In this document: positions 1 to 31,546 of the stretch, piece after piece
How the letters are laid out: each line of letters starts with the position of its first letter
How positions within the stretch are numbered: the first letter of the stretch is position 1
From: Nocardioides sp.
Lineage (GTDB): Bacteria; Actinomycetota; Actinomycetes; Propionibacteriales; Nocardioidaceae
Assembly (NCBI GenBank): GCA_025966445.1
Contig: JAICRP010000001.1
Span: 1 to 41,169, forward strand
Length of the DNA stretch: 41,169 nucleotides
Direction of reading: 5' to 3'
Position numbers and translations under genes: made by a program
Notes under the pieces: generated by a model
Told to the model about the DNA's origin: nothing
Seen by the model: the letters and a program-made list of their open reading frames with translations, nothing else
Databases searched by the model: none

Positions 1-404
1 AAGAACAGCTGGTCCTTCTTTGCCCGCAGCTCGAAGCGCGAGTAGGCCCACGCCGCCGGGACCCCGAACAGCGTGGCCAGCGCCGTCGATCCCCCGGCCA
101 CGATGACGGAGTTGAGGAACGCGACGGACAGGTCCGAGCGACCGCCGCCGGCGGCGACGAACGCGTCCTTGTAGTGGTCGAGCGTGACCCTGAAGCCGAA
201 GAACTTGGCCGGGACGGCGTAGACGTCCCGGTTCTCCTTGATCGACGTCTCGAGGATCCACAGCACCGGGAAGAGCATGGCGATCGCCAGCGCGGCGAGC
301 AGGACGACCTCGACCACCGCGCGGCCCCGACCACCACGGCGGGAGCGTGGCGGATCGTCGGGAACGGGACCGGTGGGCACGGCCTCCTGGATGGAGATGG
401 CCAT
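1..404 (-). CDS. Carbohydrate ABC transporter permease (MalG-type), 5' part; continues off the left edge
   Basis: Manual translation from ATG at 404: MAISIQEAV...VVLLAALAIAMLFPVLWILETSIK...FLNSVIVAGGSTALATLFGVPAAWAYSRF. Start overlaps the stop of the upstream permease. Confidence 0.9.
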   Translation of the reverse strand, partial: MAISIQEAVPTGPVPDDPPRSRRGGRGRAVVEVVLLAALAIAMLFPVLWILETSIKENRDVYAVPAKFFGFRVTLDHYKDAFVAAGGGRSDLSVAFLNSVIVAGGSTALATLFGVPAAWAYSRFELRAKKDQLF

Positions 405-1342: not shown

Positions 1343-1351
1343 GGGGTCAGA

Positions 1352-2785: not shown

Positions 2786-2866
2786 CTGTTCTCCTGCTTC
2801 CTGCTTCCTGGATCGGGTGTTGCCGGTCTTCCCGAGGGAATCTGCTGGGTGTTGCCGGGTGCGTGG

Positions 2867-4342: not shown

Positions 4343-5613
4343 CGCGCACCCGCCGACGAGGTCAGGTCCGGAGAGGGCCGGTCCGGCCGGGCTTCCCGCA
4401 GGGCCGCTCGGTCGCCGGCATGGGCGGCGCGGATGATCGCCTCGAGGGTGTCGACGTCGAGCGGACGCGGGTTGTTCGCGACCAGCCTCGCGGCTCCCAT
4501 CGCCTGCTCGGCGGTCCACCGCAGGCGGTCCGCGGGGACTCCGAGGTCGGCGAGCGTCGAGGGGATCCCCACCGACGCCAGCAGGGCGGCCACCCGGTCG
4601 ATCGCCTGGTCCGCCAGGTCCTCGGGCGACGCGTCCGCGCGAGCTCCCATCGCCAGCGCCACGGCGGCCATCTCGACGACCCGCACGGAACGGTTGAACT
4701 CCATCACGTACGGCAGGAGGGCCCCGACGCCGACCCCGTGGGGCGTGTGCGTGAGGGCTCCGACGGGGTACTGGATGGCGTGCGCGGCCGCGGTGCCGGC
4801 AGAGCCGAGGGCGAAACCACCGGCGGAGGCCCCGAGCATCATCGCTTCACGCGCTGCCATGTCGTCGGGGCGCGACCAGGCGCGGTGCAGGCTGCCCGAG
4901 ATCAGCCGCACGCCCAGGAGGGCGAAGGTGTCGGTCAGCTCGTTCTTGCCGACGAACACGCGTTCGGTGGCCAACGCGGACGTCACCGGATGCCGCACCG
5001 CGGTGAACGCCTCGACCACGTGCGAGAGGGCGTCGGCACCGGCGCTCGCGGTCAGGGCCGGAGGGCAGCCGAGCGTGAGCTCGGGGTCGCACACGGCGGT
5101 GTGGGGGATGATGTGGGGGCTGGAGATCCCCACCTTGCTGACGCGCTCGGGATCGGTCAGGACGGCGACCGGAGTCACCTCGGACCCGGTGCCGGCCGTG
5201 GTGGGCAGGGCGACGACGGGAACCACGGGGCCGGGCACCCGGAGCTCCCCGTAGTAGTCGGACGCCTGGCCGCCGTGCGTGAGGACCACGGCCACCGCCT
5301 TGGCGAGGTCGAGGCAGCTCCCCCCTCCCATGCCGACCACGACGTCGGGGTCCACCCGGGCCGCCAGCTCCGCGCACTGCGTCACCTGGTGCACGGGGAC
5401 ATCGGGCAGCACCTCGGTGAACGTCGTCACCCGCACACCGGCGCCCTCGAGCAGCTGGACCAGGTCGGCGAACTCTCGGGTGCTCCCGAAGCGCGCGTCG
5501 GTGCAGACCAGAGCGCGGGACCCCAGCGCCGCGGTCACCGTTCCCAGAGCGTGGCGCTGCCCGGCTCCGAACAGGACCTGTCGCGGTCCGCGCAGGACGC
5601 CGAACATGCTCAT
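4339..5613 (-). CDS. Iron-containing (group III) alcohol dehydrogenase
   Basis: GGGSCLDLAK, PTTAGTGSEVT, metal ligands in DALSH and HAIQY...PHG; start set at ATG 5613 after GGAG. Confidence 0.93.
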   Translation of the reverse strand: MSMFGVLRGPRQVLFGAGQRHALGTVTAALGSRALVCTDARFGSTREFADLVQLLEGAGVRVTTFTEVLPDVPVHQVTQCAELAARVDPDVVVGMGGGSCLDLAKAVAVVLTHGGQASDYYGELRVPGPVVPVVALPTTAGTGSEVTPVAVLTDPERVSKVGISSPHIIPHTAVCDPELTLGCPPALTASAGADALSHVVEAFTAVRHPVTSALATERVFVGKNELTDTFALLGVRLISGSLHRAWSRPDDMAAREAMMLGASAGGFALGSAGTAAAHAIQYPVGALTHTPHGVGVGALLPYVMEFNRSVRVVEMAAVALAMGARADASPEDLADQAIDRVAALLASVGIPSTLADLGVPADRLRWTAEQAMGAARLVANNPRPLDVDTLEAIIRAAHAGDRAALREARPDRPSPDLTSSAGAR

Positions 5614-5693
5614 GGGAGCTCCGGAGGTAGATGATGGAGGATGAGGAGGCAACCGGTCCGTTACTCTGCAATCGAGCGAGGCTCGATTTCATA

Positions 5694-5743
5694 TACGATC
5701 CGATTGGGCCCAGAGCATGGGCCAGTGGAGCGGCCGCTGTCAA
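5694..5743 (-). promoter_or_regulatory. Sigma70-type promoter (TTGACA-18-CATGCT) with palindromic operator at 5694-5708, for the ADH-ALDH-ABC operon
   Basis: Plus-strand TGTCAA at 5738-5743 and TACGATC-C-GATTGGG at 5694-5708; the same layout recurs at 18786-18834. Confidence 0.65.
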
Positions 5744-5779
5744 CAGGTTCAGCGACATGAGAAGGGGGACCAGCGCGAA

Positions 5780-6520
5780 GTGAACGGCGAGGCGACACGC
5801 GGCCGGGACGACGAGCCGACCGCGGAGGGGCAAGGCCCGCCGAGCGCACGACCGCGCGGACGGTTGGCCGACGAGGTCCACGACACGCTGCTGGCCCAGC
5901 TGATGTCGCTGCGGATCGTGCCGGACTCGCGGGTCACGATCGACGCGCTGGCGCGTGAGCTGGGGGTCTCGCAGACGCCGATCCGGGACGCCCTGAACCG
6001 CATGGAGGCGGACGGTCTCGTCGTGCGCGTGCCACACGCCGGCTACCGGATCCCCCCGCAGATCACCCGCGAACGTTTCGAGGACATGCTCGAGATCCGC
6101 CTGCTGCTCGAGCCTGCAGCAGCCAGGAAAGCAGCGGAAAGAGCCTCTGCAGAGCAGGTGGCGGGTCTGCGGCGCATGCTCGAGGAGATGGCCGAGCTGG
6201 TGGAGGGCGACGGACACGTGGCCTACGGCGCGTTCGGCCTCCGCGACGCCGCCTTCCACGACCTCGTCGCCGAGACTGCCGGCAACAAGGTCGTCCGCGA
6301 GGCGCTCGCCCGTCTGCACACCCACGTGCACCTGTTCCGCCTCCTCTACGACAAGCAGGTCACCTACCTGGCCATGGGAGAGCACGACGCCGTCATCGCC
6401 GCGGTCGCCGCCCGCGACCCGGACGCCGCCGCCTACGCGATGCGTCGGCACATCCTGTTGTCGGGCGACCGCTTCCGCCGCCTGTTCGACGAGGTCGAGA
6501 GTGCGGCCGATCCGGCGTGA
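5780..6520 (+). CDS. GntR family (FadR/VanR-type, FCD domain) transcriptional regulator
   Basis: wHTH LARELGVSQTPIRDALNRMEADGLV; FCD motifs DAAFH, GN, EHDAVIAA; GTG at 5780 with GAAGGGGG SD. Confidence 0.93.
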   Translation: MNGEATRGRDDEPTAEGQGPPSARPRGRLADEVHDTLLAQLMSLRIVPDSRVTIDALARELGVSQTPIRDALNRMEADGLVVRVPHAGYRIPPQITRERFEDMLEIRLLLEPAAARKAAERASAEQVAGLRRMLEEMAELVEGDGHVAYGAFGLRDAAFHDLVAETAGNKVVREALARLHTHVHLFRLLYDKQVTYLAMGEHDAVIAAVAARDPDAAAYAMRRHILLSGDRFRRLFDEVESAADPA

Positions 6521-6525
6521 AGGGC

Positions 6526-6575
6526 TTGACGCAGCGTCCTGGCCGGGTAGCCTATGCCGGTCGAATCAGATTGGA
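6526..6575 (+). promoter_or_regulatory. Promoter (TTGACG-16-TAGCCT) with palindromic operator at 6561-6575
   Basis: TTGACG 6526-6531, TAGCCT 6548-6553, TCGAATC-A-GATTGGA 6561-6575. Confidence 0.65.
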
Positions 6576-6622
6576 TTTGACGTGATGTGGTTCACAGACC
6601 CCCTGACTGCGAGGAGAAACAG

Positions 6623-7192
6623 GTGCCCAGAGCGCTGCTTCTGACCGGCGACGCCGCCGAGGAGCTCGACACCATGTACCCCTACTACCGCGTGCAGGAG
6701 GGCGGGTGGGACGTCGACGTGTCGTCGCGGACGATGCGCGACGTGCAGCTGGTCATCCACGAGTTCGACCCCAACTCCGACGCGTACGTCGAGAAGAACG
6801 GCCGCAAGCTGCCGGTGGACGTGCCCTGGGCCGACGTCGACGTCGCCCGCTACGACGCCCTCATCATTCCCGGCGGTCGCGCACCCGAGTGGATCCGGGT
6901 CGACGCCGACGTCCGACGAATCACCGAGCACTTCTTCGCGCAGGACCTCCCGATCGCGCTGGTGTGTCACGGAGCGCAGGTGCCGGCGGTGTACGGGCTG
7001 CTGAAGGGCCGCAAGACCGCGTGCTTCCCACCCATCACCGGCGACATGGAGAACGCGGGGGCCACGGTCATCGACGCCCCGGACGTCGTGGACGGCAACC
7101 TCGTCTCCTGCCGAGGGTGGCCCGACATGCCCCAGTTCGGCCGGGCGATGATGGACCTGTTCGCCAAGCACGTCGACTCCACCTCGGCATGA
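6623..7192 (+). CDS. DJ-1/PfpI family protein (glyoxalase III/deglycase-like)
   Basis: GDAAEELD (Glu), YDALIIPGGRAPE, nucleophile elbow VCHG, VDGNLVS; GTG at 6623 with GAGGAG SD. Confidence 0.93.
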   Translation: MPRALLLTGDAAEELDTMYPYYRVQEGGWDVDVSSRTMRDVQLVIHEFDPNSDAYVEKNGRKLPVDVPWADVDVARYDALIIPGGRAPEWIRVDADVRRITEHFFAQDLPIALVCHGAQVPAVYGLLKGRKTACFPPITGDMENAGATVIDAPDVVDGNLVSCRGWPDMPQFGRAMMDLFAKHVDSTSA

Positions 7193-7211
7193 GCACGGCC
7201 GTCCACCCTCG

Positions 7212-8024
7212 GTGACGGAGCCGCGGACCGTCGTCGTCGACGGCTCGCCTGTCCACGTCCTCGACGAGGGCGACGGCCCGGCGGTCCTGCTCCTGCACGG
7301 CTCCGGGCCAGGGACCACGGGCTCCGGAGCGTGGGGAGCAACGGCCGAGGCACTGCGCGGCTCGTGGCGCCTGGTGGCTCCCGACCAGGCAGGGTTCGGC
7401 CGGACACCGCTCCCGCCGGGCTCGAGGGGCGGGTTGCGCCTGTGGACCGAGCAGGCCGCGCGACTGATGGATGCCATGGGGGTCGAGTCCTACGCGGTCG
7501 TGGGCCATTCGATGGGCGGTGCCGTGGCCTTGTCGTTGGCGGGCGCCCGCCCGCAGCAGGTCACCGCCGTGGTTGCGGTCTCGACGATGGGAGCCCCGGG
7601 AGCGCCGCTGTCGGCCGAGCTCGACGCCGTCTGGGCCGCCCCCGCCGGGCCGCAGGGGGCGCGCGAGATGCTCGGACGCTTGTTCTTCGACCAGTCCCTG
7701 GTCACCGAGGCGGCCGTCGCCTCTCGCGCCCAGGCCATCCAGGCAGGTGCATCCGCGTTCGCGTCACTGTTTCCCCCGCCAAGGGCGCGATGGGCGGAGG
7801 ACCTGACCTTGTCGGTGCAGACGCTGGAAGAGATCAAGGCACCCGTGCTGCTGGTCCACGGCGCCGAGGACCGCGTCACCCCGTTGGGCTCAGCGGCCCT
7901 CCCTCTGCTCGAGCGCCTGGCGGATGTCCGGTTGCACGTGCTTGAGGGATGTGGGCACGTGCCGGCGGTCGAGCTCCCTCAAGACTTCCAACGCCTCCTT
8001 GCGGAGTTTCTCGCCCGGCCGTGA
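7212..8024 (+). CDS. Alpha/beta fold hydrolase (MhpC/BphD-like scaffold)
   Basis: LLHGSGPG, GHSMGG (Ser), HGAEDRVTP (Asp), CGH (His). Confidence 0.9.
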   Translation: MTEPRTVVVDGSPVHVLDEGDGPAVLLLHGSGPGTTGSGAWGATAEALRGSWRLVAPDQAGFGRTPLPPGSRGGLRLWTEQAARLMDAMGVESYAVVGHSMGGAVALSLAGARPQQVTAVVAVSTMGAPGAPLSAELDAVWAAPAGPQGAREMLGRLFFDQSLVTEAAVASRAQAIQAGASAFASLFPPPRARWAEDLTLSVQTLEEIKAPVLLVHGAEDRVTPLGSAALPLLERLADVRLHVLEGCGHVPAVELPQDFQRLLAEFLARP

Positions 8025-8272
8025 ACGAGGAGCTCGTCCAGGACACCGTCAGAGGTTTGGGCCAGGTCTATCGCGCCGGCGACCGCGGTGATCCATCGCG
8101 AGGTTGCCGAGCGCTCGTGGGGCTGGGTGCTGACGCCAGTGCGGCGGGGCGCTGGCGGGGTGTGGCTCACCGAGCACCCGGATCAGACCGAGCCGGGCGA
8201 TTACATCTGTGCAGTGAGGAGCGTGGCTCGTCGAGCGGCCGGCCGCGAGGGCGGCGGGCGGGGACGGCAGGG

Positions 8273-8400
8273 TCAGCCGATGTGCTCCATCGCAACTCGC
8301 CACACGCCATCAGGCTCCTTGCGCCAGACGAGCAAGCCCCGCACCTCGATCCTCGTCGGCTGGTCCTCCGGCCCGCTGACCCAGGCCACGTGTGTAGCCC
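8273..8400 (-). pseudogene. 3' remnant of an NTF2/SnoaL-like (DUF4440/YybH-type) gene
   Basis: C-terminus RGLLVWRKEPDGVWRVAMEHIG* resembles the family terminal strand pattern; no credible N-terminal half. Confidence 0.55.
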
Positions 8401-8537
8401 TTGAGCCGCGGCCGGGTCGCCGCGCTGTCAAGTCCCGAGCGGGACAAACCCACCACAGCATGAGCGTTCGTCGTCCGCCTGACTTGAGCCCAAGGCGTTG
8501 GTCAAGGTCGCCCTGACGAGGCTGCCGGCTCCGGCGG

Positions 8538-9164
8538 TCATCGTTCAGCTGGGTGTGCGGCGGCCCGACGTCGACGGTGCATCAGTGCCAGCGCGGGAAC
8601 GGTGCCGAGCAGGACCAGTCCTACCGGCAGGACCGCCGCGCGTCCCCGCTGCCACCACTTGTCCTCTTCCGTCACCGCAGCCGACGCACTGACGTCGCCA
8701 CCCTCCGAACCACCGTTGCCTGCTGCGGCGGCACGCGAGGCCACCACGAAGCGCACTTCCCCACGCACGTCGTGACCGTCCGCCGACACGACGAAGTACT
8801 CCAACAGGTACTCACCGTCCGGGCCGGCCCAGAGGGTCTGGCTGACTTCTGGCCCGAGGGAGGTGGCAGCACCATTCGTGACGCTCCCGTCCGGCCCGAC
8901 CACCGTGATCTCTCGAATCGTGGCGACGGTGTCGGAGAAGGTGAGGCGGGCGCGCGACGGCAGGGCCTCGACCACCGCGTCCTCCGCCGGGTCGGAGTAG
9001 AGCAGTGCCCCATGGGCGGCTGCCGGGGGTGCGGGCACCCATCCGACAATGGCGGCGACGAGCAGGACCGTCAGGGCGACCACGCGGGACGTTTCGGACG
9101 GCGCAGCCCTTGGACGGACGACGGGACGGGGAACGGCTGGCGCTCCTCGGGTCGAGCGGGTCAT
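8538..9164 (-). CDS. copC: CopC copper-binding protein with C-terminal membrane anchor
   Basis: Signal peptide ending AAA-H, HxxLxxSDP, LTFS, VVSADGH, then a hydrophobic helix and RRRR tail. Confidence 0.9.
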   Translation of the reverse strand: MTRSTRGAPAVPRPVVRPRAAPSETSRVVALTVLLVAAIVGWVPAPPAAAHGALLYSDPAEDAVVEALPSRARLTFSDTVATIREITVVGPDGSVTNGAATSLGPEVSQTLWAGPDGEYLLEYFVVSADGHDVRGEVRFVVASRAAAAGNGGSEGGDVSASAAVTEEDKWWQRGRAAVLPVGLVLLGTVPALALMHRRRRAAAHPAER

Positions 9165-9335
9165 GGAAGGGGGTCACGAACGCCGTGAGGGGTGCGGCAG
9201 GTTGCCTCACGGCGCCGACTACCCGCCCCGAGGAGGGCCCGGCCACCGGCCGCTCGCAGGGGCGAACCTGCGAGCGATCGGAGCCGTACGGCCGGGCCTT
9301 CCATCTGCGGACGCTCTCTTCTCCAGCCGAGCCGC

Positions 9336-12300
9336 CTATGACTGGTCCGCGCCCGCCGAGGCGAGTCGCAGCCAGGTGAGCCTGGAGTCGTCCACGAGGC
9401 CGCTGACGGTCACCGTCGGCGTCGCGATGGCGATCTTCACGGTGACCTTCTCGATCGCTGAGACCGTGCCGGTGGCGTCGGTCGCCCTGGCCTGGACCTG
9501 CCAGGACCCGTTGGTGGCCACCGTGAACGGCCCGGTGTACAACGTCCAGGCACCGCTGCCGACCTTGTACTCGAGCGTCAGCGTGCCCTGGCCACCGGAG
9601 CCGGTGAGGGTGAAGGTGACCGGTGAGGTGTACGTGCCGCCCTTCCCGTTCGGCGCCGTGGGTTCCAAGGTGATGCTCACGGTGGGTTTCGACGCCGTCC
9701 CGGGCCCGGACTTCTTGTCGACGACGATGGTCAGCTCGCCCGTGCCCGTGCTGCCCGCGTTGTCGATGGCGCGGTAGCGCAGGACGTAGGTGCCGGCATT
9801 GCTGAAGGTCACGGGTGTCGTGTACGTCGTCCAGGTCGTCGCGTCACCGATCCTGTACTCGATCCTGTCCACGCCGGAGGTGGCGTCGGTGGCGGTCAGG
9901 GTGACCGTCTTGGTGCTCGATCCCGACACGGCAGCCGAGATGTTCGGGTTGACCGTGTCGATCTTGACCGTCAGCGACTTGATGGCCTCCTGGTTGCCCT
10001 TGTCGTCCGTCGAGCGGTACTCGACCAGGACCGAGCCTTCACCGGGCACGGAGACAGCCGCGGTGTAGGGCGTCCAGTCGCCCCCGGCGATGCGGTACTC
10101 GGTCGAGGCGACCCCCGACCCGTCCTCTCCGTCGGTGGCAGCCAGCGTGAACGACGGACGCGTGCCGTACCAGCCGGCCGCGTTGGCCGCCGGGATGGAG
10201 AGCGTCGTCGTCGGCGCCGTCGTGTCGGGCGTCGGGACGAAGACCGAGAGCTGGTCGCTCGCCACGTTGCCGGCCACGTCGAAGGCACGGAAGGCCACGT
10301 CGTAGGTGCCGGGATCGCTGAACGTCACCGGTGTCGTGTACGTCGTCCACGTCGCCGCGTCACCGATCTTGTACTCGATCCGGTCCACGCCGGAGGTGGC
10401 GTCGCTGGCGGTCAGGGTGACCGTCTTCGTCTCCTCACCGGTCGTGCTGCCCGACACCGTGGGGATGACCGTGTCGATCTTGACCGACAGCGACTTGATG
10501 GCCTCCACGTTGCCCGCCGTGTCCGTCGAGCGGTACTCGACCAGACGCGTGCCCTCACCGGTCACCGAGACCGCTGCGGTGTACGGCGTCCAGGCTCCCC
10601 CGGCGATGCGGTACTCGGTCGAGGCCACGCCCGACCCGCCCGTCCCGTCGGAGGCAGCCAGCGTGAACGACGGACGCGTGGTGTACCAGCCGGCGGCGTT
10701 GGCGGCCGGGATGGAGAGCGTCGTCGTCGGCGCCGTCGTGTCCGACGGGGCCGGCGGCTTGCACGTGTCGTCCTTGCCCAGCGTGAAGTAGTCGAACCTC
10801 GCGATCAGGTTGTCTGCTCCCCCGGCAGCCGTGGCACCCAGGGCCAGCAGGCCGACCTTGGGCGACGTGATGCTGGTCAGGTCGCGTGGTGCGGCCGTGC
10901 CGCCCGACGTGGTGATCGACAGCCAAGTGGTCCCGTCGGTGCTGTAGGACGGGGTGACGACGTTGCCGTCGGTGCTCGACAGCCGCAGCCACACGGTGTC
11001 GGGGAACGTCGAGCCCAGGGCCGTGGAGTTGGTCTCCGAAGCCGTGGCGTTGACCTCCTTGAAGAACTGGATGATGTTGTTCGCCTTGTTCCCCGCGGTT
11101 GCCGTGGAGCGACCCGAGTAGACGAGCTTCAGGTAGTTGTCGTCGTCCCCGTAGATGATCAGTCCGGCTTGCTGGTAGCCCCTGATGGCGTTCAGCGTGA
11201 CCTTGGTCGTGACCACGAACGCCCCGCCGGGCAGGTCCTGCAGGACGATGTTCGGCGTCGTGTTCGTCGTCTGGTAGAGGTCGGAGTTGGTCAGCGGGAT
11301 GTTGAGCGTCCCGCCGGCCACCGTGAGCGAGTCGTTGAGCCGGACGCTCCTGTTCCACCGCGCCAGGTCCAGGGCGTTGCCGTCGAACTGGTCGACCTGG
11401 CACGGGGTGGCGCACGGGGTGGCCGTGCTGTCGGGCGTGATCAGGAAGTAGTCGAACTTCGCGACCAGGTTGTCCGCACCACCGGCAGCCGTGGCACCCA
11501 GGGCCAGCAGGCCGACCTTGGGAGAAGTGATGCCGGTCAGGTCACGCGGGGCTGCGGTCGCACCGCCGGTCGACGTGGTGATCGGGAGCCAGGTGGCCCC
11601 GTCGCTGCTGTACGACGGCGTGACGCTGTTGCCGTCGGTGCTCGACATCCGCAACCACACGGTGTCGGGGAAGGCGGCGCCCAGGGCGGTTGAGTTGGAC
11701 TCCGACGCAGTGCCGTTGAGCTCCTTGGCGAACTGGATGACATTCGCCGCCTTGCTCCCCGCGGTGGCCGTGGAGCGACCCGAATAGACGAGCTTCAGGT
11801 AGTTGTTGTCGTCGCCGTAGATGACCAGCCCCGCCTGCTGATAGCCGCGGACGGCGTTCAGCGTGACCTTCGTGGTGACCTCGAACGCGCCGGCCGGCAG
11901 GTCCTGGAGCACGATGTTCGGCGTGGTGTTGGTCCCCTGGTAGATGTCGGAGTTGGTCAGCGGGATGTTCAGGTTCCCGTCGGAGACGGTGGCCGTCTGG
12001 TCGAGCCGGACGCTCCTGTTCCAGCGCGTCGTGTCGAGCGAGGTGCCCAGGAAGTCGTCGGAACGTCCACTGAAGCAGATGTTCTCGGCCGCCGTGACGG
12101 TGATCTCCAGCGACTTCGTGGTCTTCGCCCCACGGGCGTCGGTGACCGTCAGGGAGACGGTGTACTTGCCCGGGGTGGCGTAGGTCTTGCTCGGGTTGGC
12201 CACAGTGGAGGTCGTGGTGTCGCCGAAGCTCCACGCGTAGGTGACCGGGGTGTCTCCGTCGGCGTCCGTGACGGTGCTCGTGAAGCTCACGGGCAAGGGC

Positions 12301-15300
12301 GCAGGTCCGGTCAGCTTGCTGGCACTGATGGTGACCGTCGGCGGCGAGTTGTCGGTCACACCGCGACCGGCGAACTCGAGCCAGTTGACGTTGGCCCCTC
12401 CGGTGGTGGCGACGAAGTACAGCGGGCCGCTGTCCAACGAGGCTCCGGTGAACGTGGTCGAGACGCTCTGGAAGGTCTGGGCGCCGCCGGTGTTGGGCAC
12501 CACGAGCGCCCCGATCGTGGGGCCGGTGGCCGAGCCCTGGCGGACCTCGAAGGTGGCGCCCGCCGTGGTGGAGGCAGCACGCATGGTGAGGCCGGTGATG
12601 TTCGTCAGGTTCATGACGTCCCAGCGGAACCAGTCACCGGTCTCGACGCCGGTCACGTTGGACCCACCGTTGGTGTCGGTGGTGGTCTGCGTGGCGACTC
12701 CGGGCGTACCAGCGGTGTTGGAGCCCGTGCGACCGGTCTGGTCGAAGTACTCGGCCTCCTTGTGCTTGGTGTGCAGCACCGCCCCGTCGACGCCGGTCAG
12801 CTGGCCGGCGGCCCCTGCACCGGAGTCCTTGTAGGTCGCAGTGACGGTCCCGAAGACGTTCGCGACGGAGTGGCCGGCGTCACCGGGCAGCACGAAGCTG
12901 CCGCTGCAACCGGTGTACTGCTCGTAGCCGTGCGAGTGCTGGTCGTGACCGAGACCCGGCTGCACGATGACCTTGCTGCAGTCGATCGTCCCGTCCTCGG
13001 CGTCGGTGACCGAGACCTGGTACTTGATGGTGTCGCCGAACTCGAAGAAGCCACCGTCGAGCGGAAGCTCCAGGTTGACCACCGGGGCGGTGTTGCCCGC
13101 CACGATGTCGATGTTCGTCGAGCCGGTCTTGCCGTTGAGAGCCGTCACCGTCAGCTTTGCGGTGTAGTTGCCCGCCGCCGCGTAGGTGAACGACGCCGTC
13201 GGCGTGGTCGCGTCGGTCGAGCCGTCGCTGGTGAAGTCCCAGGCGTAGGTGAGGCCGGCGTTGGTGCCGGTGTCGCCGTCGAAGGACGAGCTGCCGTCGA
13301 AGCTGACGGTCAGCGGCGCGGGACCTGACGTCTTGTCGGCCGCCGCACGTGCGGTCGGGGAGCGCTCCCCCTCGACGTAGTCGATGCGGTAGACGCCGGA
13401 GTTCGCGTTGTCACCGTTGAACCCGCTGCCCCACTCGATCATGTACAGCGCGCCGTCCGGGCCGAACTGCAGCGCGTGCGGGCGGGACATGGCCAGGTTC
13501 GGCAGGAACCGGTTGATGTCGGTGTAGTTGGTGCCGTTGTCGTTCATCTGCACGGTGAACAGCCGGCTGTTGTTCCAGTCGGCCCAGATCGCCTTGCCGT
13601 CGAAGTACGCCGGCCACTTGCGGTCCGACGCCAGGTCCGGGTCGAAGTCGTAGGTGCCGGAGGTCATCGGCGCGCCGCTGGCCCCGATCTCGGGGGTCCC
13701 CGTGATGGAGGCGTTGTTGCTCTGCCAGATGACCGCAGCCTTGGCAGGCGGCAGGTTCGTCAGGCCCGTGTTGTTGGGCGAGTCGTTGACCGGTGCCGCA
13801 CAGTTGAACGTCGCACCTGAGGTGCTGCTCGCGAAGTTGTAGTCGTTGTAGGGAGTGTTGGCGCCCACGCAGTAGGGCCACCCGTAGAACCCGGGCTGGT
13901 CGAGGATGTTCCACTCGACCCGGCCGTTGGGACCGCGCGTGGCACTCACCGAGGTGGCGTCCGGCCCGTAGTCGGCGACCAGAAGCTTGTTGTTCTGCTC
14001 GTCGAGGCCGATGCGGAACGGGTTGCGGAAGCCCATCGCGTAGATCTCGGGGCGGGTCTTGTTGTTGGCATCAGCGGCCTCGTCGAACAGGTTCCCTGCC
14101 GGGATCGTGTAGCCACCGGCCAGGGCGGGCTTGATCTTGAGGACCTTGCCGTTGAGGTCGTTGGTGTTGGCCGAGGTGCGCTGGGCATCCCAGGCGCTGC
14201 GGCCGTCGCGCTCGTCGATGGGTGCGTAGCCGTCGGAGTTGAACGGGTTGGTGTTGTCACCGGTCGCGAGGTAGAGGTTGCCGTCGTGGTCGAACTCCAT
14301 CGAGCCGCCCGCGTGGCAGCACTCGTTGCGCTGGACGGGGATGTCCAGGATCGTGACCGCCGAGGCCATGTCCATGGTGTTGCCGTTCATCGTGAACCGG
14401 GAGACCCGGTCGATCGAGGCCGTGCCCTGGGGTGCGTAGTAGAGGAACACGTGCCCGTTGGTGGCGAAGTCCGGGTCGAGCGCGATGCCGAGCAGGCCGA
14501 ACTCCTGACCCGTGTAGACGGGCACCGTGCCGGCCGTGACGACGCTGCCGGTGGGGAGGATGATCTTCACCGCGCCGGCGCGGTCGATGTAGAAGACCCG
14601 ACCGTCATCGGCGATGTCGAGCTCCATCGGGTTCGTCGTGTTCTCGTCGAGGGCGACCTTCGCGAAGCTGGGCTGCAGCGTCGCCTTGCAGTCCGACGGG
14701 ACGACACCGGCAGCGGTCTCGATACCCCCGAGGATGTGCTGGAGGAAGTTCGGGTCGGTGAAGTTGGCCTCCGTGTGACCCATGCCGGTGTACCAGCTGC
14801 GACCACCGTCGTAGTCCTGGCACCAGGCGATCGGGTGCTCCACCCCGTTGGCGCCCGTGCCAGGGGTGTAGGTGGTCTCGTCCATCGAGGCCAGCACGTG
14901 GATCTGGTTGCGCGCGGTGAGGGTGTTGGGAGTGCGGAAGTTGTACCACTCGTCCACGCGCTGCCAGCGCTTGGGAAGCCCCGCGGTGGAGGGGTGCGCG
15001 GGGTCCTCGACCTTGACGGTGGCGGTCGGGGTGCCTGCGGGGTGGTTGTTGAAGTAGGCGCCGACGAGGCCGCCGTACCACGGCCAGTCGTACTCGGTGT
15101 CGGACGCGGCGTGGATGCCGGCGTAGCCGCCACCACCCTCGATGTAGCGCTCGAACGCCGCCTGCTCGGTCGCGGTCAACACGTCACCGGTGGTGGAGAG
15201 GAAGATGACGACCTCGTACTGCTCGAGGTTGGCGTCGTTGAAGACGGAGCTGTCCTCCGACGTGGTCACCGTGAAGTTGTTGGAGGCCGCGAGCTGCTGG

Positions 15301-15638
15301 ATCGCGGTGATCCCCTCGTCGAGGTTGGAGTGCCGGAAGGCCTGGGTCTCGGAGAAGAGCAGCGCGTCGAACGACCCGGCTGCAGCCGCCTCGACCTCCG
15401 CGGAGGCGATGCTCGCAGGGGGCCACGGCTTGGCCTTGCCGAGCTCGGTCACCTCGCCACCAGGAGAGGACTCCTGGGAGGTGCCGGCCGGGGCCTTGTC
15501 CCCGTCTCCTGCTCCCGCACTCGCCGATGCGCCGAGGCCGAGAGCCACGCTCAGCGGTAGCGCCACGAGCATGGCAATGGTCGAGCCCACGACGGCGCGT
15601 GAGCGCCTCTTCGGCTGCGTGATGATGCGGTTCATCAC
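9336..15638 (-). CDS. Giant secreted multidomain protein: ThuA-like, glucose/sorbosone dehydrogenase (GSDH) propeller, PKD, CBM6-like, PKD, two ConA/DUF1349-like domains, Ig-like repeats
   Basis: Signal peptide; ThuA motifs (FRH, GIHAASDTEY, DEWYNF, YTGMGH); GSDH motifs (CCHAGG, LYLATGDN, GFRNPFR, YGWPYC, GPDGALY); PKD WDF/WSFGD; EAEYF CBM; DTTAPTT repeats. Confidence 0.88.
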   Translation of the reverse strand: MMNRIITQPKRRSRAVVGSTIAMLVALPLSVALGLGASASAGAGDGDKAPAGTSQESSPGGEVTELGKAKPWPPASIASAEVEAAAAGSFDALLFSETQAFRHSNLDEGITAIQQLAASNNFTVTTSEDSSVFNDANLEQYEVVIFLSTTGDVLTATEQAAFERYIEGGGGYAGIHAASDTEYDWPWYGGLVGAYFNNHPAGTPTATVKVEDPAHPSTAGLPKRWQRVDEWYNFRTPNTLTARNQIHVLASMDETTYTPGTGANGVEHPIAWCQDYDGGRSWYTGMGHTEANFTDPNFLQHILGGIETAAGVVPSDCKATLQPSFAKVALDENTTNPMELDIADDGRVFYIDRAGAVKIILPTGSVVTAGTVPVYTGQEFGLLGIALDPDFATNGHVFLYYAPQGTASIDRVSRFTMNGNTMDMASAVTILDIPVQRNECCHAGGSMEFDHDGNLYLATGDNTNPFNSDGYAPIDERDGRSAWDAQRTSANTNDLNGKVLKIKPALAGGYTIPAGNLFDEAADANNKTRPEIYAMGFRNPFRIGLDEQNNKLLVADYGPDATSVSATRGPNGRVEWNILDQPGFYGWPYCVGANTPYNDYNFASSTSGATFNCAAPVNDSPNNTGLTNLPPAKAAVIWQSNNASITGTPEIGASGAPMTSGTYDFDPDLASDRKWPAYFDGKAIWADWNNSRLFTVQMNDNGTNYTDINRFLPNLAMSRPHALQFGPDGALYMIEWGSGFNGDNANSGVYRIDYVEGERSPTARAAADKTSGPAPLTVSFDGSSSFDGDTGTNAGLTYAWDFTSDGSTDATTPTASFTYAAAGNYTAKLTVTALNGKTGSTNIDIVAGNTAPVVNLELPLDGGFFEFGDTIKYQVSVTDAEDGTIDCSKVIVQPGLGHDQHSHGYEQYTGCSGSFVLPGDAGHSVANVFGTVTATYKDSGAGAAGQLTGVDGAVLHTKHKEAEYFDQTGRTGSNTAGTPGVATQTTTDTNGGSNVTGVETGDWFRWDVMNLTNITGLTMRAASTTAGATFEVRQGSATGPTIGALVVPNTGGAQTFQSVSTTFTGASLDSGPLYFVATTGGANVNWLEFAGRGVTDNSPPTVTISASKLTGPAPLPVSFTSTVTDADGDTPVTYAWSFGDTTTSTVANPSKTYATPGKYTVSLTVTDARGAKTTKSLEITVTAAENICFSGRSDDFLGTSLDTTRWNRSVRLDQTATVSDGNLNIPLTNSDIYQGTNTTPNIVLQDLPAGAFEVTTKVTLNAVRGYQQAGLVIYGDDNNYLKLVYSGRSTATAGSKAANVIQFAKELNGTASESNSTALGAAFPDTVWLRMSSTDGNSVTPSYSSDGATWLPITTSTGGATAAPRDLTGITSPKVGLLALGATAAGGADNLVAKFDYFLITPDSTATPCATPCQVDQFDGNALDLARWNRSVRLNDSLTVAGGTLNIPLTNSDLYQTTNTTPNIVLQDLPGGAFVVTTKVTLNAIRGYQQAGLIIYGDDDNYLKLVYSGRSTATAGNKANNIIQFFKEVNATASETNSTALGSTFPDTVWLRLSSTDGNVVTPSYSTDGTTWLSITTSGGTAAPRDLTSITSPKVGLLALGATAAGGADNLIARFDYFTLGKDDTCKPPAPSDTTAPTTTLSIPAANAAGWYTTRPSFTLAASDGTGGSGVASTEYRIAGGAWTPYTAAVSVTGEGTRLVEYRSTDTAGNVEAIKSLSVKIDTVIPTVSGSTTGEETKTVTLTASDATSGVDRIEYKIGDAATWTTYTTPVTFSDPGTYDVAFRAFDVAGNVASDQLSVFVPTPDTTAPTTTLSIPAANAAGWYGTRPSFTLAATDGEDGSGVASTEYRIAGGDWTPYTAAVSVPGEGSVLVEYRSTDDKGNQEAIKSLTVKIDTVNPNISAAVSGSSTKTVTLTATDATSGVDRIEYRIGDATTWTTYTTPVTFSNAGTYVLRYRAIDNAGSTGTGELTIVVDKKSGPGTASKPTVSITLEPTAPNGKGGTYTSPVTFTLTGSGGQGTLTLEYKVGSGAWTLYTGPFTVATNGSWQVQARATDATGTVSAIEKVTVKIAIATPTVTVSGLVDDSRLTWLRLASAGADQS
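9790..10742. repeat. Intragenic tandem duplication, 516-bp period (two-domain Ig-like unit)
   Basis: GCCAGCGTGAACGACGGACGCGTG at 10141 and 10657; protein DTTAPTTTLSIPAANAAGWY twice. Confidence 0.9.
10780..12070. repeat. Intragenic tandem duplication of a ConA/DUF1349-like domain, about 660-bp period
   Basis: GTGGCACCCAGGGCCAGCAGGCCGACCTTG at 10831 and 11491; protein NIPLTNSD..TTPNIVLQDLP..YQQAGL..GGADNL twice. Confidence 0.9.
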
Positions 15639-15722
15639 GATCCCTTCGTTGGTGACGGTTGGTCTGCGATGCGGATGATCAGTGGTGCGGACGGTGGTCG
15701 GTGCTGCCGAGCGGCAGGGCGC

Positions 15723-16967
15723 TCAGACGGGTGCACTGGCGCTGCGGCGTGGGACCCGGGTGGGATCCGCGAAGACGGATTCGAGGGCTGCGGTGGCGCC
15801 GCCGCGAACGGCGGCACTGAACCCCAGGACCGACAGCTCGACCTGGGTGCCGCCCGCGTCCGGCGCGAGCACGCCGGCGCGCAGGGCCTGCTCGATCGCA
15901 GTCCGCATGTGGTGGCCGACGGCGGCGTAGTAGCCGGTCAGGACGATGGTCGCCGGGTTGAGGGCATTGACCAGGATCGCGGCGCCGGTCCCGACCCACG
16001 TTGCGACGTCCTCCAGTGCCTGCAGGGTGCGGGCGTCGCCGAGGCCCGCGCGGCGGTTGATCTCGGCCAGGCGGTCGTCGAGGGCCATCGTCGGATTGCG
16101 GATCGGGTCGTCCGGATCGGCGGCCAGCTCGAGCAGGGCACGAAGGCCGCTCACCGTCTCCCAGCACCCTTGTCGCCCGCATGCACACTGACGCCCGCCG
16201 GGCTCGACGATCATGTGCCCGAACTCCCCGGCGAAGCCGTGGCTCCCCCGCAGCAGCCTTCCGCCGCTCACGATGCCGCCACCGACGCCGATCTCCCCGT
16301 GCAGCACCAGCATGTCCTGACGACCGGCGTCGCCCGGGATCACCTCGGCTGCCGCAGCCAGGTTCCCCTCGTTGTCGACCACGATCGGGAACGACCCGCC
16401 CAGCTCCTGGCGCAGGATCGCCCCGACAGGCACGTCGTACCACCCGAGGTTCGGTCCGTGGGTCAGCACGTCGCGGGTCCGGTCGTACAGACCCGCCACG
16501 CCGACCGTGAGTCCGACGGTCTGGACGCCCTCCTCGTCGAGCCGATCCACGGTCTCGCGGACCAGGTCGGCGAGGTGGCCGAGCACGATGGTGGAGTCCA
16601 TGGAGCGGGCGTCCAGCGCGAGCTTCCGGTCCCCCACTACGCGGCCCCGCAGGTCGAGCGCCATCGTCGACACATGGTTGACGTTGATCTCCGCCCCGAT
16701 GCCACACACGGCGTGGCCGTCCAGCTCGACGGCGGTGCCGGGGCGGCCGACGGCGCTCTGCACCAGCGGCCCGTCAGTCAGGAGGCACCGTTCGATCAGC
16801 TCGGAGACCAGTGTCGACACCGTCGAGCGGGTCATCCTCAGGTCAGCGGCCAGGGAGGCGCGCGAACGCGGGCCGTGGTCCCGCAGGTGGCGCAGGACCA
16901 GGCCGAGGTTCGCCCTCCGGACGTCAGGGTGCGTGACGCCGCGATCGGACAGTGCCTGGTACGGCAT
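15723..16967 (-). CDS. ROK family transcriptional regulator
   Basis: N-terminal HTH (SRASLAADLRMTRSTVSTLV), GRP, VDNEGN, GFAGEFGH, Zn motif CACGRQGCWE. Confidence 0.93.
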   Translation of the reverse strand: MPYQALSDRGVTHPDVRRANLGLVLRHLRDHGPRSRASLAADLRMTRSTVSTLVSELIERCLLTDGPLVQSAVGRPGTAVELDGHAVCGIGAEINVNHVSTMALDLRGRVVGDRKLALDARSMDSTIVLGHLADLVRETVDRLDEEGVQTVGLTVGVAGLYDRTRDVLTHGPNLGWYDVPVGAILRQELGGSFPIVVDNEGNLAAAAEVIPGDAGRQDMLVLHGEIGVGGGIVSGGRLLRGSHGFAGEFGHMIVEPGGRQCACGRQGCWETVSGLRALLELAADPDDPIRNPTMALDDRLAEINRRAGLGDARTLQALEDVATWVGTGAAILVNALNPATIVLTGYYAAVGHHMRTAIEQALRAGVLAPDAGGTQVELSVLGFSAAVRGGATAALESVFADPTRVPRRSASAPV

Positions 16968-17053
16968 CCTCGCTCCTCTCGGACACGACGAAGGGCATGG
17001 GTGATGGACCCGGGGGCGGTGGACACCTTGTGGAAGACCCGAGCCCGGCTTGA

Positions 17054-17068
17054 TCCGATCAGATCGGA
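17054..17068. promoter_or_regulatory. Perfect 15-bp palindromic operator TCCGATC-A-GATCGGA
   Basis: Read directly; about 90 bp upstream of the ROK gene start; matches sites at 5694, 6561 and 18786. Confidence 0.7.
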
Positions 17069-17102
17069 AATGACCCTGATGGGCCTGTGATCGGTGTCAC
17101 TT

Positions 17103-17127
17103 TTAGTTCAGGTGACGGTCAAACTAG
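17103..17127. promoter_or_regulatory. Putative ROK (XylR-type) operator TAGTT-N13-AACTA
   Basis: TTAGTTCAGGTGACGGTCAAACTAG; arms and spacing match the Bacillus xylO as I recall it; lies between two ROK genes. Confidence 0.55.
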
Positions 17128-17241
17128 GCCCAGCGCGGAGGAGCCACAACAGCCAGGTCGAAATTTCCAATTGGAAATTTGGACTTCTGACGCTTCTCAC
17201 GCGTCTTCTGACCGAATTGGTCAAAACTCAGGTCCAGATCC

Positions 17242-18369
17242 TCAAAAATCCTGTTCGATCCAGGAGGTGATGGCCGCTGCGGCACCACCGATGAGGTCCG
17301 CCCGACCGTAGGGGTCGCTCAGGGAGATGTCGAGCCCCTCGGCCAGTGAGGGTGGCGCCAGCCGGTAGACCGTGGCCCGGAGGTCGCCGAGGACGGACGG
17401 TCCGATCGCGGCCACCGGACCGCCGACGACGACGCGACGCGGATTGCCGTGGGCCACCAGGCCCGCCACCACGCGTCCCAGCCTCTGGCCCAGCTCGCGA
17501 CCCACCTGGGCCACGACCGCATCCCCCGTGCGTCCAGCGTCGACGAGGTCGCGGAGGTCGAGCTTCCCCGCTCGCTCCAGCACCTGCGCGAGCCCGGACG
17601 AACGACCCCGACGCGCGAGGCTGGTCGCTTGCGCGACGAGCGCAGACGAGCTGACGAAGGCGTCCAGGCATCCGGTGAGCCCGCACGCGCATGCCGGTCC
17701 GAACTCCTCCACCCTGAGGTGCCCGATCTCACCGGACCGTCCGGTGGATCCGAGGACGAGGCTTCCCCCCGCCACGGTCGCCACGGTGACGCTGCGACCC
17801 AGCCGGACGGCCACCAGGTCGTCGGCGGCGCTCGCGCTACCCTCGCACCTCTCCCCGAGCGCCAGGGCACGCACGGCCGAGACCGTGGCGCGTGGTCGAT
17901 CGGGGTATGCGCTGGCGAGTCGCGCCACGACTGCCTCCGCGGCGGTGGGCTCGATGTCGGCGGCCGCGACGCCGACGGCCGCAGGGGCGGACGTCCCCAA
18001 GAGCCGGTGGGCTGCACGACACACGGTGTCCGCGAGCCACTCCGTCTCCAGGTCGCGGTCGTGCAGATCGATGTTGACTCCCGATGTGACGGTGAGCTGG
18101 CCGTCGAGGAGGGCAACCCGCGCCGAGGTCTCGCTCATGGAGACCACCAAGAACCGACGACCGGACGCGATCCGTACGGTGACCGAGCGCCGGCCTCCGG
18201 AGCTCACCGCGACCGAGCCGTCCTCGACGTGTCCGGCGTCCGTCAGTCCGCGTACCGAGGCGTTCAACGTCGTGCGCGGGATGCCGAGGACATCGGCGAG
18301 CTGGTTCTTGGTCTGCGGTCCTGCGTCCCTCAGGACCTTCAGCACCTCGCCCTCCAGTCCACGCCTCAT
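17242..18369 (-). CDS. Second ROK family protein with HTH and degenerate sugar-binding motifs
   Basis: HTH (KNQLADVLGIPRTTL), SSGGRRS, SGEIGH, CACGLTGCLD; start set at ATG 18369. Confidence 0.85.
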   Translation of the reverse strand: MRRGLEGEVLKVLRDAGPQTKNQLADVLGIPRTTLNASVRGLTDAGHVEDGSVAVSSGGRRSVTVRIASGRRFLVVSMSETSARVALLDGQLTVTSGVNIDLHDRDLETEWLADTVCRAAHRLLGTSAPAAVGVAAADIEPTAAEAVVARLASAYPDRPRATVSAVRALALGERCEGSASAADDLVAVRLGRSVTVATVAGGSLVLGSTGRSGEIGHLRVEEFGPACACGLTGCLDAFVSSSALVAQATSLARRGRSSGLAQVLERAGKLDLRDLVDAGRTGDAVVAQVGRELGQRLGRVVAGLVAHGNPRRVVVGGPVAAIGPSVLGDLRATVYRLAPPSLAEGLDISLSDPYGRADLIGGAAAAITSWIEQDF

Positions 18370-18380
18370 GGGCGGTACTG

Positions 18381-18703
18381 CTACCTGCCGACCTCGGCCA
18401 GCATCTGGCCGGTGCCGGCATCGAAGAGGTTGGCTCGGTCGAGGTCCCCGGCGACCGCCAGTGGCTCCCCCGGAGCTCCCGTAGCCGCAGGACGCGCGTT
18501 CATCTCGAGCACCTAGGCACCTGCCTTGACGTCGACCAGGGTGCGGACGCCAACGGCTCGACCGCATGGAGCTCACCGAACAGGGAGGCGTCGCCCCGAC
18601 GCTCGACCGACAGGCCCCCGAGACGCAGGCCGGGACGAAGGTGCTCAACGGCTGCGGTGGATGCGCGTGAGCTCGGTTCGCGCAGGACGCCGAGCGTGGT
18701 CAT
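18381..18703 (-). pseudogene. Remnant of a sugar ABC ATPase (MalK/MsiK-like) C-terminal OB/TOBE region
   Basis: Reconstructs as ...LFGELHAVEPL/VRTLVDVKAGA*VLEMNARPAATGAPGEPLAVAGDLDRANLFDAGTGQML, with a frameshift near 18550 and an in-frame TAG at 18513-18515; no Walker motifs. Confidence 0.7.
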
Positions 18704-18785
18704 GGCGGCTCCGGAAGCTCGACGGTAGGGGGGAGACGGCCGCCCGGCTCAGGAACTCGAGACCGGATGTGCCGACCAATTCCTA

Positions 18786-18834
18786 TACGATCTGGTCGGA
18801 TGGACATCGTCTGGCAGAGCGCGACAGATGTCAA
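18786..18834 (-). promoter_or_regulatory. Promoter TTGACA-17-GACGAT with palindromic operator at 18786-18800
   Basis: Plus-strand TGTCAA 18829-18834, ATCGTC 18806-18811, TACGATC-T-GGTCGGA 18786-18800. Confidence 0.7.
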
Positions 18835-19320
18835 CAGGGGGCGCTGACCGCGAAGAAAAACCGCGCCCTCACGCTGCCGCCCGTGGTGGCCGTTCGAGCA
18901 GGCGGTGCGACGGCGAGGGCGGCCGCTGGGCTCGATGGGTGACGTCGACGCAGTCATCAGACAAGATCAAATCGGATCTAGTTCATTCACTGGGGGAGCT
19001 TCGCATCGTACGAGAACCCCGGGTAGGTCAACTGCTGGTCACTCCTGCATCAACTCGAGATCGGATGTTTCTGCTGGTGAGAGACCACGTCTGCCCGGGC
19101 GTTCATGAAGATCGACGGCCGGGTGGTGTGGTATCAAGCGCACCGGAACTGCCCGAGCAGCAGCCGGGAGACAACGGGTGATGCCTGACCCGCGCCGACC
19201 GACTGACCACGACGGACTTCGCCGCGGGGGTACGCCGGAGGTACGCGGAGCGCGCGCGGTTGACATAACCGGAGCGGCGCGGAGACCCGTACAAAGTCCC
19301 AGGTCAGCGCGATGTGCAGG

Positions 19321-19396
<76 letters not shown>

Positions 19397-19486
19397 AGAT
19401 GTGTTGCTTCTACGCCGTCAGGATGACCCCTCAGACGCGAAACGGAAGGCTAGCACCGGGCCCGAGGGGGTACCGAATCAGGCCGG

Positions 19487-31528: not shown

Positions 31529-31546
31529 CTCCCCGAGGGCGTCCGC

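What the first reader, a model, noticed from the sequence alone, without database searches (positions are those of the whole stretch)
5694..18976. One palindromic operator links the transcription units of the island into a candidate regulon
Seen: a 15-bp palindrome with consensus TCCGATC-N-GATCGGA occurs at 5694-5708 (TACGATC-C-GATTGGG), 6561-6575 (TCGAATC-A-GATTGGA), 17054-17068 (perfect), 18786-18800 (TACGATC-T-GGTCGGA) and weakly at 18962-18976. All copies are intergenic. Three lie 28-29 nt downstream of a TTGAC[AG] -35 hexamer, at the predicted transcription start, which is repressor geometry. Inference: the adjacent GntR is the likeliest binder. That would place the ABC/ADH/ALDH operon, the DJ-1/hydrolase operon, the ROK-giant enzyme-CopC unit and the dead ATPase-ROK unit under one signal. 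I do not recognise the motif.
Basis: partly seen in the sequence, partly recalled or inferred. Interest (0 to 1): 0.8.

Follow-up and report, generated by a model that had tools for sequence, protein, structure and literature searches.

The report
Stacked GntR operator in 5-bp repeats
A short DNA signal repeated at this soil bacterium's sugar-breakdown promoters is real and conserved in 80 related genomes, and is likely the binding site of the neighbouring GntR repressor, which is predicted to stack in overlapping copies whose number changes in steps of five bases.

Summary
The five sites exist and are not chance, but the motif was mis-framed. It has 8 hits in the 2.83-Mb assembly, 7 in this island, including a missed site at 17165. 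It is conserved at 79 of 80 orthologous gntR divergons and 80 of 80 DJ-1 promoters, where it forms (GATCG)n arrays that change by whole 5-bp units. Distant GntRs with the same recognition helix but other target genes carry it too, so the adjacent GntR/FCD repressor is the likely binder; binding is untested. The regulon is narrower than claimed. Sites 4 and 5 are relics of a second, collapsed copy of the same cluster, and site 5 precedes no gene. The ROK-ThuA-CopC unit has its own conserved ROK-type and CRP-like sites; its GntR-type sites appear only in the gntR-linked clade. The closest known motif is the predicted HypR2 site. Verdict: a new FadR-subfamily regulon with an unusual stacked operator; effector unknown.

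The parts
5688..5704 (.). Operator A: 12-mer TTCATATACGAT (5688-5699) plus an offset partial copy (5693-5704), about +4 to +20 of the leftward ADH-ALDH-ABC promoter; overlaps a candidate gntR -10 (TACGAT 5694-5699, inferred).
   Evidence: (79 of 80 orthologues)
5714..5743 (-). Predicted leftward promoter: -35 TTGACA 5743-5738, -10 CATGCT 5719-5714
   Evidence: start site not mapped
1..5613 (-). Operon: Fe-containing ADH (4339-5613), SSADH-like ALDH, family-1 solute-binding protein, two permeases; cut by the contig end (two ATPases follow in relatives)
5780..6520 (+). GntR/FCD repressor, 246 aa from GTG 5780; winged helix plus six-helix C-domain; invariant D156, H160, H202, H224
6526..6553 (+). 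Predicted DJ-1 promoter: -35 TTGACG 6526-6531, -10 TAGCCT 6548-6553
6560..6576 (.). Operator array B (12-mer ATCAGATTGGAT 6565-6576 plus a weaker copy from 6560), about +1 to +17.
   Evidence: (80 of 80 orthologues)
6582..6595 (.). CRP/GlxR-like GTGA-N6-TCAC just behind array B
   Evidence: only 2 of the 80 orthologous DJ-1 promoters share it
6623..8024 (+). DJ-1/PfpI gene (6623-7192) and alpha/beta hydrolase of meta-cleavage C-C hydrolase type (7212-8024)
8538..16967 (-). ROK1 (15723-16967), 2100-aa ThuA/GSDH/CBM6/PKD protein (9336-15638), CopC (8538-9164)
   Evidence: same order in L142
17053..17069 (.). Operator array D: two 12-mers offset by 5 bp in the ROK1 leader, about +46 to +62.
   Evidence: weak trace at the same place only in L141
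17087..17149 (-). ROK1 promoter: -35 TTGTGG 17149-17144, -10 TAGTTT 17126-17121, ROK-type palindrome 17103-17126, CRP/GlxR-like site 17087-17100
   Evidence: 30 of 30 ROK-type; 22 of 30 strict CRP-like
17165..17176 (.).
17242..18369 (-). ROK2, intact; last gene of the ABC operon in L051, L053, L096
18384..18715 (-). Collapsed relic of a second ABC operon: frameshifted C-terminal part of ATPase 2 fused to the first 42 nt of an ADH gene (86% identical to 5584-5625)
   Evidence: spanned by contigs of 3 of 4 runs laid
18780..18834 (-). Operator E (TTCCTATACGAT 18780-18791) with -35 TTGACA 18834-18829: paralogue of operator A and its promoter, now facing ROK2.
18966..18982 (.). Relic array F (ATCAAATCGGAT 18966-18977), collinear with the DJ-1 promoter but with decayed -35 and -10 and no gene behind it.
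19321..19396 (-). tRNA-Ala(CGC) at the right edge of the region

Best explanation
The sites are copies of a 12-bp palindrome, WTC-NN-AT-NN-GAW, that is conserved beside gntR orthologues and is likely the operator of the adjacent GntR/FCD repressor, which would block the ADH-ALDH-ABC, gntR and DJ-1-hydrolase promoters until a small, probably carboxylate, effector releases it. Because (GATCN)n is its own reverse complement, n units hold overlapping 12-mers every 5 bp, half a helical turn, so successive dimers would sit on alternating faces of the DNA (inferred). A relic copy of the promoter keeps ROK2 under the same operator (inferred). Two further sites flanking the ROK1 promoter, 107-112 bp apart, would add GntR input, by looping or roadblock, on top of that promoter's own ROK-type and CRP-like control (inferred, weaker). 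Site 5 is probably a dead relic. Shown: sequence, position, conservation, paralogy. Inferred: binder, repression, stoichiometry, effector.
For: Rarity: 8 hits in 2.83 Mb, 7 in the island; a matrix built from the orthologous loci ranks nine window hits first in the assembly. Conservation: 79 of 80 divergons and 80 of 80 DJ-1 promoters, with 1-4 overlapping copies. The motif follows the regulator, not the enzymes: 23 of 25 distant GntR loci (about 40-54% identity, four families) carry an exact 12-mer upstream, and the other two show a one-mismatch copy in the printed sequence. Those loci share the I-D...S-[QA]-T-P-[IV]-R helix but face sugar-acid dehydratase- or lactonase-like genes. Published code: the predicted HypR2 motif WTCGTATACGAW fits the 12-mer, and HypR2 has Asp at the position where this protein has invariant Asp55, while HypR has Ser and a T in place of the C (compared by eye); the paper reports an Asp-C correlation there. 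Against ROK2 as binder: L117 has site C without an adjacent ROK2, while L113-L115 have ROK2 without site C.
Against: No binding, start-site or expression data. The right half of operator A (TACGAT/TAGGAT) also fits an actinobacterial -10 box, which could explain part of its conservation. The 80 loci are kin, mostly Streptosporangiaceae and Nocardioides, and 21 of the 25 distant loci come from one family. Site C maps to one ROK1 clade, so it is a single event (quick tree, support 93), and it is degraded in one of the four gntR-linked genomes (L141). Site D is full only in this window. The assembly is 58% complete and holds two other FCD genes. The 12-mer pattern was partly drawn from the window's own sites.
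Confidence: 0.85

Rival explanations
1. GntR controls only its own cluster (sites A and B, plus relic E and F). The sites at the ROK1 promoter are non-functional or belong to another factor, so the ROK-ThuA-CopC unit is not a regulon member.
For: The ROK1 promoter has its own ROK-type palindrome in 30 of 30 orthologues, and 26 of the 29 ROK1 genomes tested lack the gntR orthologue. Site D is window-specific and site C is a single gain, degraded in L141.
Against: Site C keeps its position (-52/-53 from the -10 box) and its dyad through three sequence variants while the flanks diverge. None of the 26 unlinked ROK1 promoters scored above 4.8, against 13.7-15.8 for the intact sites. C and D score among the top nine hits in the assembly.
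Confidence: 0.3
2. A ROK protein or an unlinked regulator, not this GntR, binds the motif.
For: Two ROK genes lie in the island; two other FCD genes are in an incomplete assembly.
Against: ROK1 or ROK2 orthologues lie within 10 kb in only 4 of the 80 loci, yet 80 of 80 have the arrays. The motif also sits upstream of distant GntRs with other targets.
Confidence: 0.07
3. The arrays are GATC methylation targets forming an epigenetic switch of the Pap/agn43 kind (analogy recalled).
For: Orthologous DJ-1 arrays hold 2-5 GATC each.
Against: The window's array B and sites A-core and C contain no GATC, and 49 of 284 array units are ATTGG. No Dam-family PF02086 gene was found in the 58%-complete assembly. 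GATC is near its expected frequency, 17222 against 17984.
Confidence: 0.05
4. The pattern is only promoter sequence (a gntR -10 box) plus neutral microsatellite expansion at the DJ-1 start site.
For: TACGAT fits a -10 box; array length varies by whole units.
Against: The arrays vary only at the positions that are free in the single palindrome, while TC/AT/GA are kept. They are present in 80 of 80 loci across several families, and the same 12-mer occurs at ROK1 positions that are not -10 boxes.
Confidence: 0.05

Closest known systems
HypR2 / HypR / HpxS even-spaced FadR-subfamily operators (Suvorova et al. 2015, PMC4494728)
   Same: 12-bp even palindrome with an AT centre; the predicted HypR2 sites ATCGTATACGAT and TTCGTATACGAA fit WTCNNATNNGAW; autoregulated divergon; Asp at the correlated helix position.
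   Different: The GT/AC boxes are relaxed (CT/AG, GG/CC, CG/CG); CCTATAGG and TATAGGAT have 0 hits in the two supplement files searched; Gln replaces the Arg/Lys of the recognition helix; actinobacterial; different target genes; overlapping arrays at 5-bp steps.
GntR operators with additional boxes, and NanR direct repeats (PMC4494728)
   Same: Extra half-sites beside a palindrome, proposed to recruit more subunits cooperatively.
   Different: There the extra boxes lie 7-12 nt from the centre or are plain direct repeats; here whole palindromes overlap with a 5-bp period and the copy number varies.
Fur and DtxR/IdeR boxes (recalled; search returned no paper)
   Same: Overlapping inverted repeats bound by dimers on opposite helix faces; works-like analogy only.
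   Different: Unrelated protein families and sequences; metal-sensing co-repression.
PmiR-type and TM0439-type six-helix FCD regulators (PDB 7xp0, 3fms; names recalled)
   Same: Best solved relatives, E 4e-23 and 1e-12; six-helix C-domain in the model.
   Different: Only distant similarity; not orthologues; effector differs or is unknown.
Levoglucosan / 3-keto-glycoside loci (LgdA, LgdB, LgdC; PMC10066097)
   Same: A levoglucosan-dehydrogenase-like gene ends the ABC operon in 5 of 80 loci; ABC transporters and ROK regulators are common neighbours of lgdA.
   Different: The oxidoreductase scores 360-377 bits against a cut-off of 650; the passages read name ROK, LytTR, PucR and LacI regulators, not GntR; the DJ-1/C-C hydrolase/ADH/ALDH core is not described in them.

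Membership tests
GntR family, FadR subfamily (protein) | [quoted passage not shown] | tested here: met
   53.3 bits, cut-off 27; three helices plus a hairpin in the model
GntR family, FadR subfamily (protein) | All-helical FCD C-domain of six or seven helices | tested here: met
   PF07729 89.4 bits; six helices over residues 97-243, counting 170-186 as one kinked helix; mean pLDDT 82.9; definition
GntR family, FadR subfamily (protein) | Effector binding (often a carboxylate at an Asp/His metal site) releases DNA | not testable with these tools
   D156, H160, H202, H224 invariant in 27 of 27 sequences; their role is recalled from related proteins
Canonical FadR-subfamily operator (NyGTM-N0-1-KACNy) | Conserved GT and AC boxes | tested here: not met
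   72 of 79 divergon sites are TTCCTATACGAT (one box only); array units have neither
Canonical FadR-subfamily operator (NyGTM-N0-1-KACNy) | Short palindrome at an autoregulated divergon or start site | tested here: met
   79 of 80 and 80 of 80
HypR2 orthologous group | HypR2-type helix sequence and gene context | tested here: not met
   Recognition helix S-Q-T-P-I-R-D here against S-K-I-P-V-R-E in most HypR2 rows; NCBIfam and Pfam scans gave no hydroxyproline-pathway names for the core genes
Operator of this GntR | Direct, sequence-specific binding and repression | not testable with these tools
   needs EMSA, footprinting or a mutant
Operator of this GntR | Co-occurs with the regulator across lineages and target sets | tested here: met
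   kinship limits independence
Dam-methylation epigenetic switch | Strict GATC in every operator and a cognate methylase | tested here: not met
   array B and site C lack GATC; PF02086 not found in a 58%-complete assembly
Levoglucosan dehydrogenase (NF052479), distal gene in relatives | Score above the curated cut-off | tested here: not met
   359.7 and 377 bits against 650

The most novel reading that the evidence does not exclude
This GntR clade uses a self-complementary 5-bp repeat as a slippage-tunable operator: each (GATCG) unit gained adds one overlapping dimer site on the opposite helix face, so repeat number sets how tightly the DJ-1/hydrolase operon is repressed. Duplicated, collapsed promoter-operator relics are kept because they wire further regulators (ROK2, then ROK1 and the giant ThuA enzyme) into the regulon of an undescribed actinobacterial sugar-breakdown pathway.
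Probability: 0.25. Interest if true: 0.65.

Novelty: new variant of a known kind. Interest (0 to 1): 0.4.

Why it matters
It gives a precise, testable operator and regulon for a nine-gene catabolic cluster conserved across soil Actinobacteria, for which the paper searches found no description. The regulator offers a handle on the unknown substrate, since its effector can be screened directly. If overlapping sites at half-turn spacing and their whole-unit length changes tune repression, it would be a simple natural rheostat for GntR repressors and a useful part for synthetic promoters. Otherwise it is an ordinary new local regulon of a well-known family.

Tried and rejected
Fixed 15-bp odd palindrome: rejected, since it separates poorly from background and misses the TATA-centred half of sites 1 and 4. 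Sites 4 and 5 as independent recruitments: rejected. Assembly artefact for the collapsed copy: rejected, since contigs from three studies span 17242-18925 (the fourth run did not cover it). Repeat-number variation within this species: not seen; 4 runs laid on 5500-6800 showed no 5-bp indel, but contigs hide rare variants, and none was seen at array D. The generic promoter scan found 0 sites, as its consensus is too strict for this high-GC organism. Weak matrix hit at 17248 lies inside the ROK2 coding end and is left uncounted. The eighth genomic 12-mer (contig C109) and lower-ranking matrix hits were not followed up. No cluster gene was found behind site 5 in the part's output that was shown (it was cut). 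Substrate assignment: binding-protein, ADH and hydrolase searches gave only distant relatives. Paper searches for the motif strings (none relevant among 0 and 26 listings, judged from titles and abstract starts), for the gene set (46: 0; 58: 1), and for GntR dimers on opposite faces or tandem repeats (56, 59: 0) found no description. PMC5507952 passages held nothing on this motif. Earlier-finding look-ups were empty. A scan of all genomes for promoter-linked arrays was not run, so arrays in genomes without this gntR are untested.
Full report
Setting. The window is contig C178 of a 2.83-Mb, 58%-complete assembly of about 72% G+C. Its closest titled orthologous loci are Nocardioides and other Actinomycetota. 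Bases 1-19000 hold a leftward operon (Fe-ADH, SSADH-like ALDH, family-1 binding protein, permeases), gntR (GntR+FCD), DJ-1/PfpI and an alpha/beta hydrolase, then leftward ROK2, ROK1, a 2100-aa ThuA/GSDH/CBM6/PKD protein and CopC. A tRNA-Ala follows at 19321.

Observation. The five 15-mers are present as stated, and three lie 28-29 nt from TTGAC[AG]. The 15-bp consensus is a weak discriminator: 1 perfect, 8 two-mismatch, 128 three-mismatch and 1144 four-mismatch sites in the assembly. TATACGAT, however, occurs 3 times in the assembly, twice at sites 1 and 4, which pointed to another frame.

Reframing. The gntR query found 295 relatives among GTDB genomes, of which the best 80 (77-87% identity) were kept. 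The core is conserved: ALDH and ADH in 80 of 80; binding protein, permease and DJ-1 in 79; hydrolase in 77. Upstream of gntR these loci carry TTCCTATACGAT or a variant; at the DJ-1 promoter they carry (GATCG)n arrays (output partly cut). Both fit WTC-NN-AT-NN-GAW. It is present at 79 of 80 divergons (the miss, L044, has one mismatch) and 80 of 80 DJ-1 promoters, with 1, 2, 3 or 4 overlapping copies in 7, 37, 31 and 5 loci. Of 54 loci sharing one -10 anchor, 47 could be scored, and 42 of these have array spans of exactly 25, 30 or 35 nt: gains and losses are whole units. In the assembly the 12-mer has 8 hits, 7 in this island, against 1.4 expected per genome and 0.02 per window under a fourth-order model, and at most 2 in 2000 shuffles of the island's intergenic DNA. 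A matrix from the 80 loci ranks nine window positions first. The pattern was chosen with the window in view, so these counts are partly circular; cross-genome conservation is not.

Who binds. In 25 distant GntR loci (L006-L030, about 40-54% identity, four families), 23 have an exact 12-mer upstream, 21 of them the perfect ATCCTATAGGAT in one family, and two have a one-mismatch copy. Their neighbours are sugar-acid dehydratase-, lactonase- and hydrolase-like genes, except L006, which faces an ADH. All share the I-D...S-[QA]-T-P-[IV]-R helix. In Suvorova et al. 2015 (PMC4494728; read: parts 2-3 of 7, passages, supplement S1 part 14 of 56 and term searches), predicted HypR2 sites such as ATCGTATACGAT fit the 12-mer. 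By eye, HypR2 has Asp where this protein has invariant Asp55, and HypR has Ser and T instead of C; the paper reports an Asp-C correlation at that position. The model shows a winged helix and a six-helix C-domain, with invariant D156, H160, H202 and H224, recalled as the FCD metal site. ROK proteins are unlikely binders: orthologues lie within 10 kb in 4 of 80 loci. No binding was measured.

Sites 4 and 5. Bases 18384-18676 encode the frameshifted C-terminal part of the cluster's second ATPase, and 18674-18715 match the ADH start at 86%. The stretch to 18834 aligns with the site 1 promoter. In L051, L053 and L096 ROK2 ends the intact operon. So this is a second copy of the cluster, collapsed by deletion, whose promoter-operator now faces ROK2. 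Contigs from three of four runs, from three studies, span it. Site 5 is collinear with the DJ-1 promoter but has a decayed -35 and -10 (modest, 57% mean column identity), and no cluster gene was seen behind it. Five other loci show a duplicated operator pair around a decayed gntR.

ROK1 unit. ROK1 orthologues were found in 52 of 400 family genomes. All 30 promoters examined have a TTG-type -35, TA[GC]TTT -10 and an overlapping palindrome, taken to be the ROK operator (inferred), and 22 have a strict GTGA-N6-TCAC, matching the GlxR consensus (PMC7999487, passages). Of 29 ROK1 genomes tested, 3 hold the gntR orthologue. A 12-mer at -52/-53 from the -10 box is intact in the window, L112 and L117, degraded in L141, and absent (score at most 4.8) in 26 unlinked promoters, one of which has gntR on another contig; L139 was not scored. 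L051 also has it; L096, L036 and L053 repeat L112, L117 and L141 and are counted once. The four linked ROK1s form one clade (quick tree, support 93; the careful tree did not finish), so this is one gain. Site 3 lies about +46 to +62 and has only a weak trace in L141. GntR input on this unit is plausible (about 0.65) but secondary.

Mechanism. Predicted start sites put array B at +1 to +17 and operator A at +4 to +20, where a bound dimer would block initiation; A also overlaps a candidate gntR -10 box. A 5-bp offset is half a helical turn, so overlapping dimers would occupy alternating faces, as recalled for Fur and DtxR (search gave no paper). C and D are 107-112 bp apart, compatible with a loop. 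All of this is inference. The pathway is unresolved. DJ-1 is closest to plant DJ-1D (glyoxalase III activity recalled), the hydrolase to meta-cleavage C-C hydrolases, and a levoglucosan-dehydrogenase-like gene (below cut-off) ends the operon in 5 of 80 loci, with ThuA-domain genes nearby in 6 of 80 (PMC10066097, passages). My best guess, at about 0.3, is breakdown of an oxidised sugar or dicarbonyl, with a carboxylate product as effector.

Novelty. Searches for the motif strings, the gene set and stacked GntR operators found no description; the library lacks most subscription papers, figures are not held, and RegPrecise was not available. The operator works like known even-spaced FadR-subfamily sites but fails the GT/AC-box test and forms overlapping arrays of variable length. 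Verdict: new variant of a known kind, interest 0.4.

Noticed in passing
   Followed up: yes
window 17087-17126 and L112-L141: Conserved ROK1 promoter architecture: -10 overlapped by a ROK-type palindrome, followed at once by a CRP/GlxR-like site; a candidate second regulon in Nocardioidaceae
   Followed up: partly
L046, L063, L074, L092, L100, about 11300-19800: Tandem duplication of the gntR-DJ-1 unit with giant ThuA-domain genes and a ROK remnant in between and a decayed second gntR; links ThuA enzymes to this cluster in another lineage
   Followed up: partly
window 9762-10742 and 10785-12060: Two long internal direct repeats (about 466 and 616 bp, 84-86% identical) in the 2100-aa ThuA gene; OmpL47-type barrel repeats by NCBIfam
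   Followed up: no
L125-L140, upstream of the ROK1 -35: A different palindrome (ACTTT[GC][CG]AAAGT-like) recurs in several ROK1 promoters that lack the gntR cluster; binder unknown
   Followed up: no
L007-L027 divergons: Perfect ATCCTATAGGAT upstream of a related GntR facing sugar-acid dehydratase, lactonase or transporter genes; a second candidate regulon
   Followed up: partly
L091-L109, upstream of the binding-protein gene: Many Streptosporangiaceae loci keep a short relic of the ADH start between the promoter and the binding-protein gene, a trace of the older gene order
   Followed up: no
G000 contig C167, 598-1752: Levoglucosan-dehydrogenase-like oxidoreductase 74% identical to the distal gene of five orthologous operons, but here behind a different ABC transporter
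   Followed up: partly
window 31456-31529: tRNA-Arg(CCT) gene
   Followed up: no
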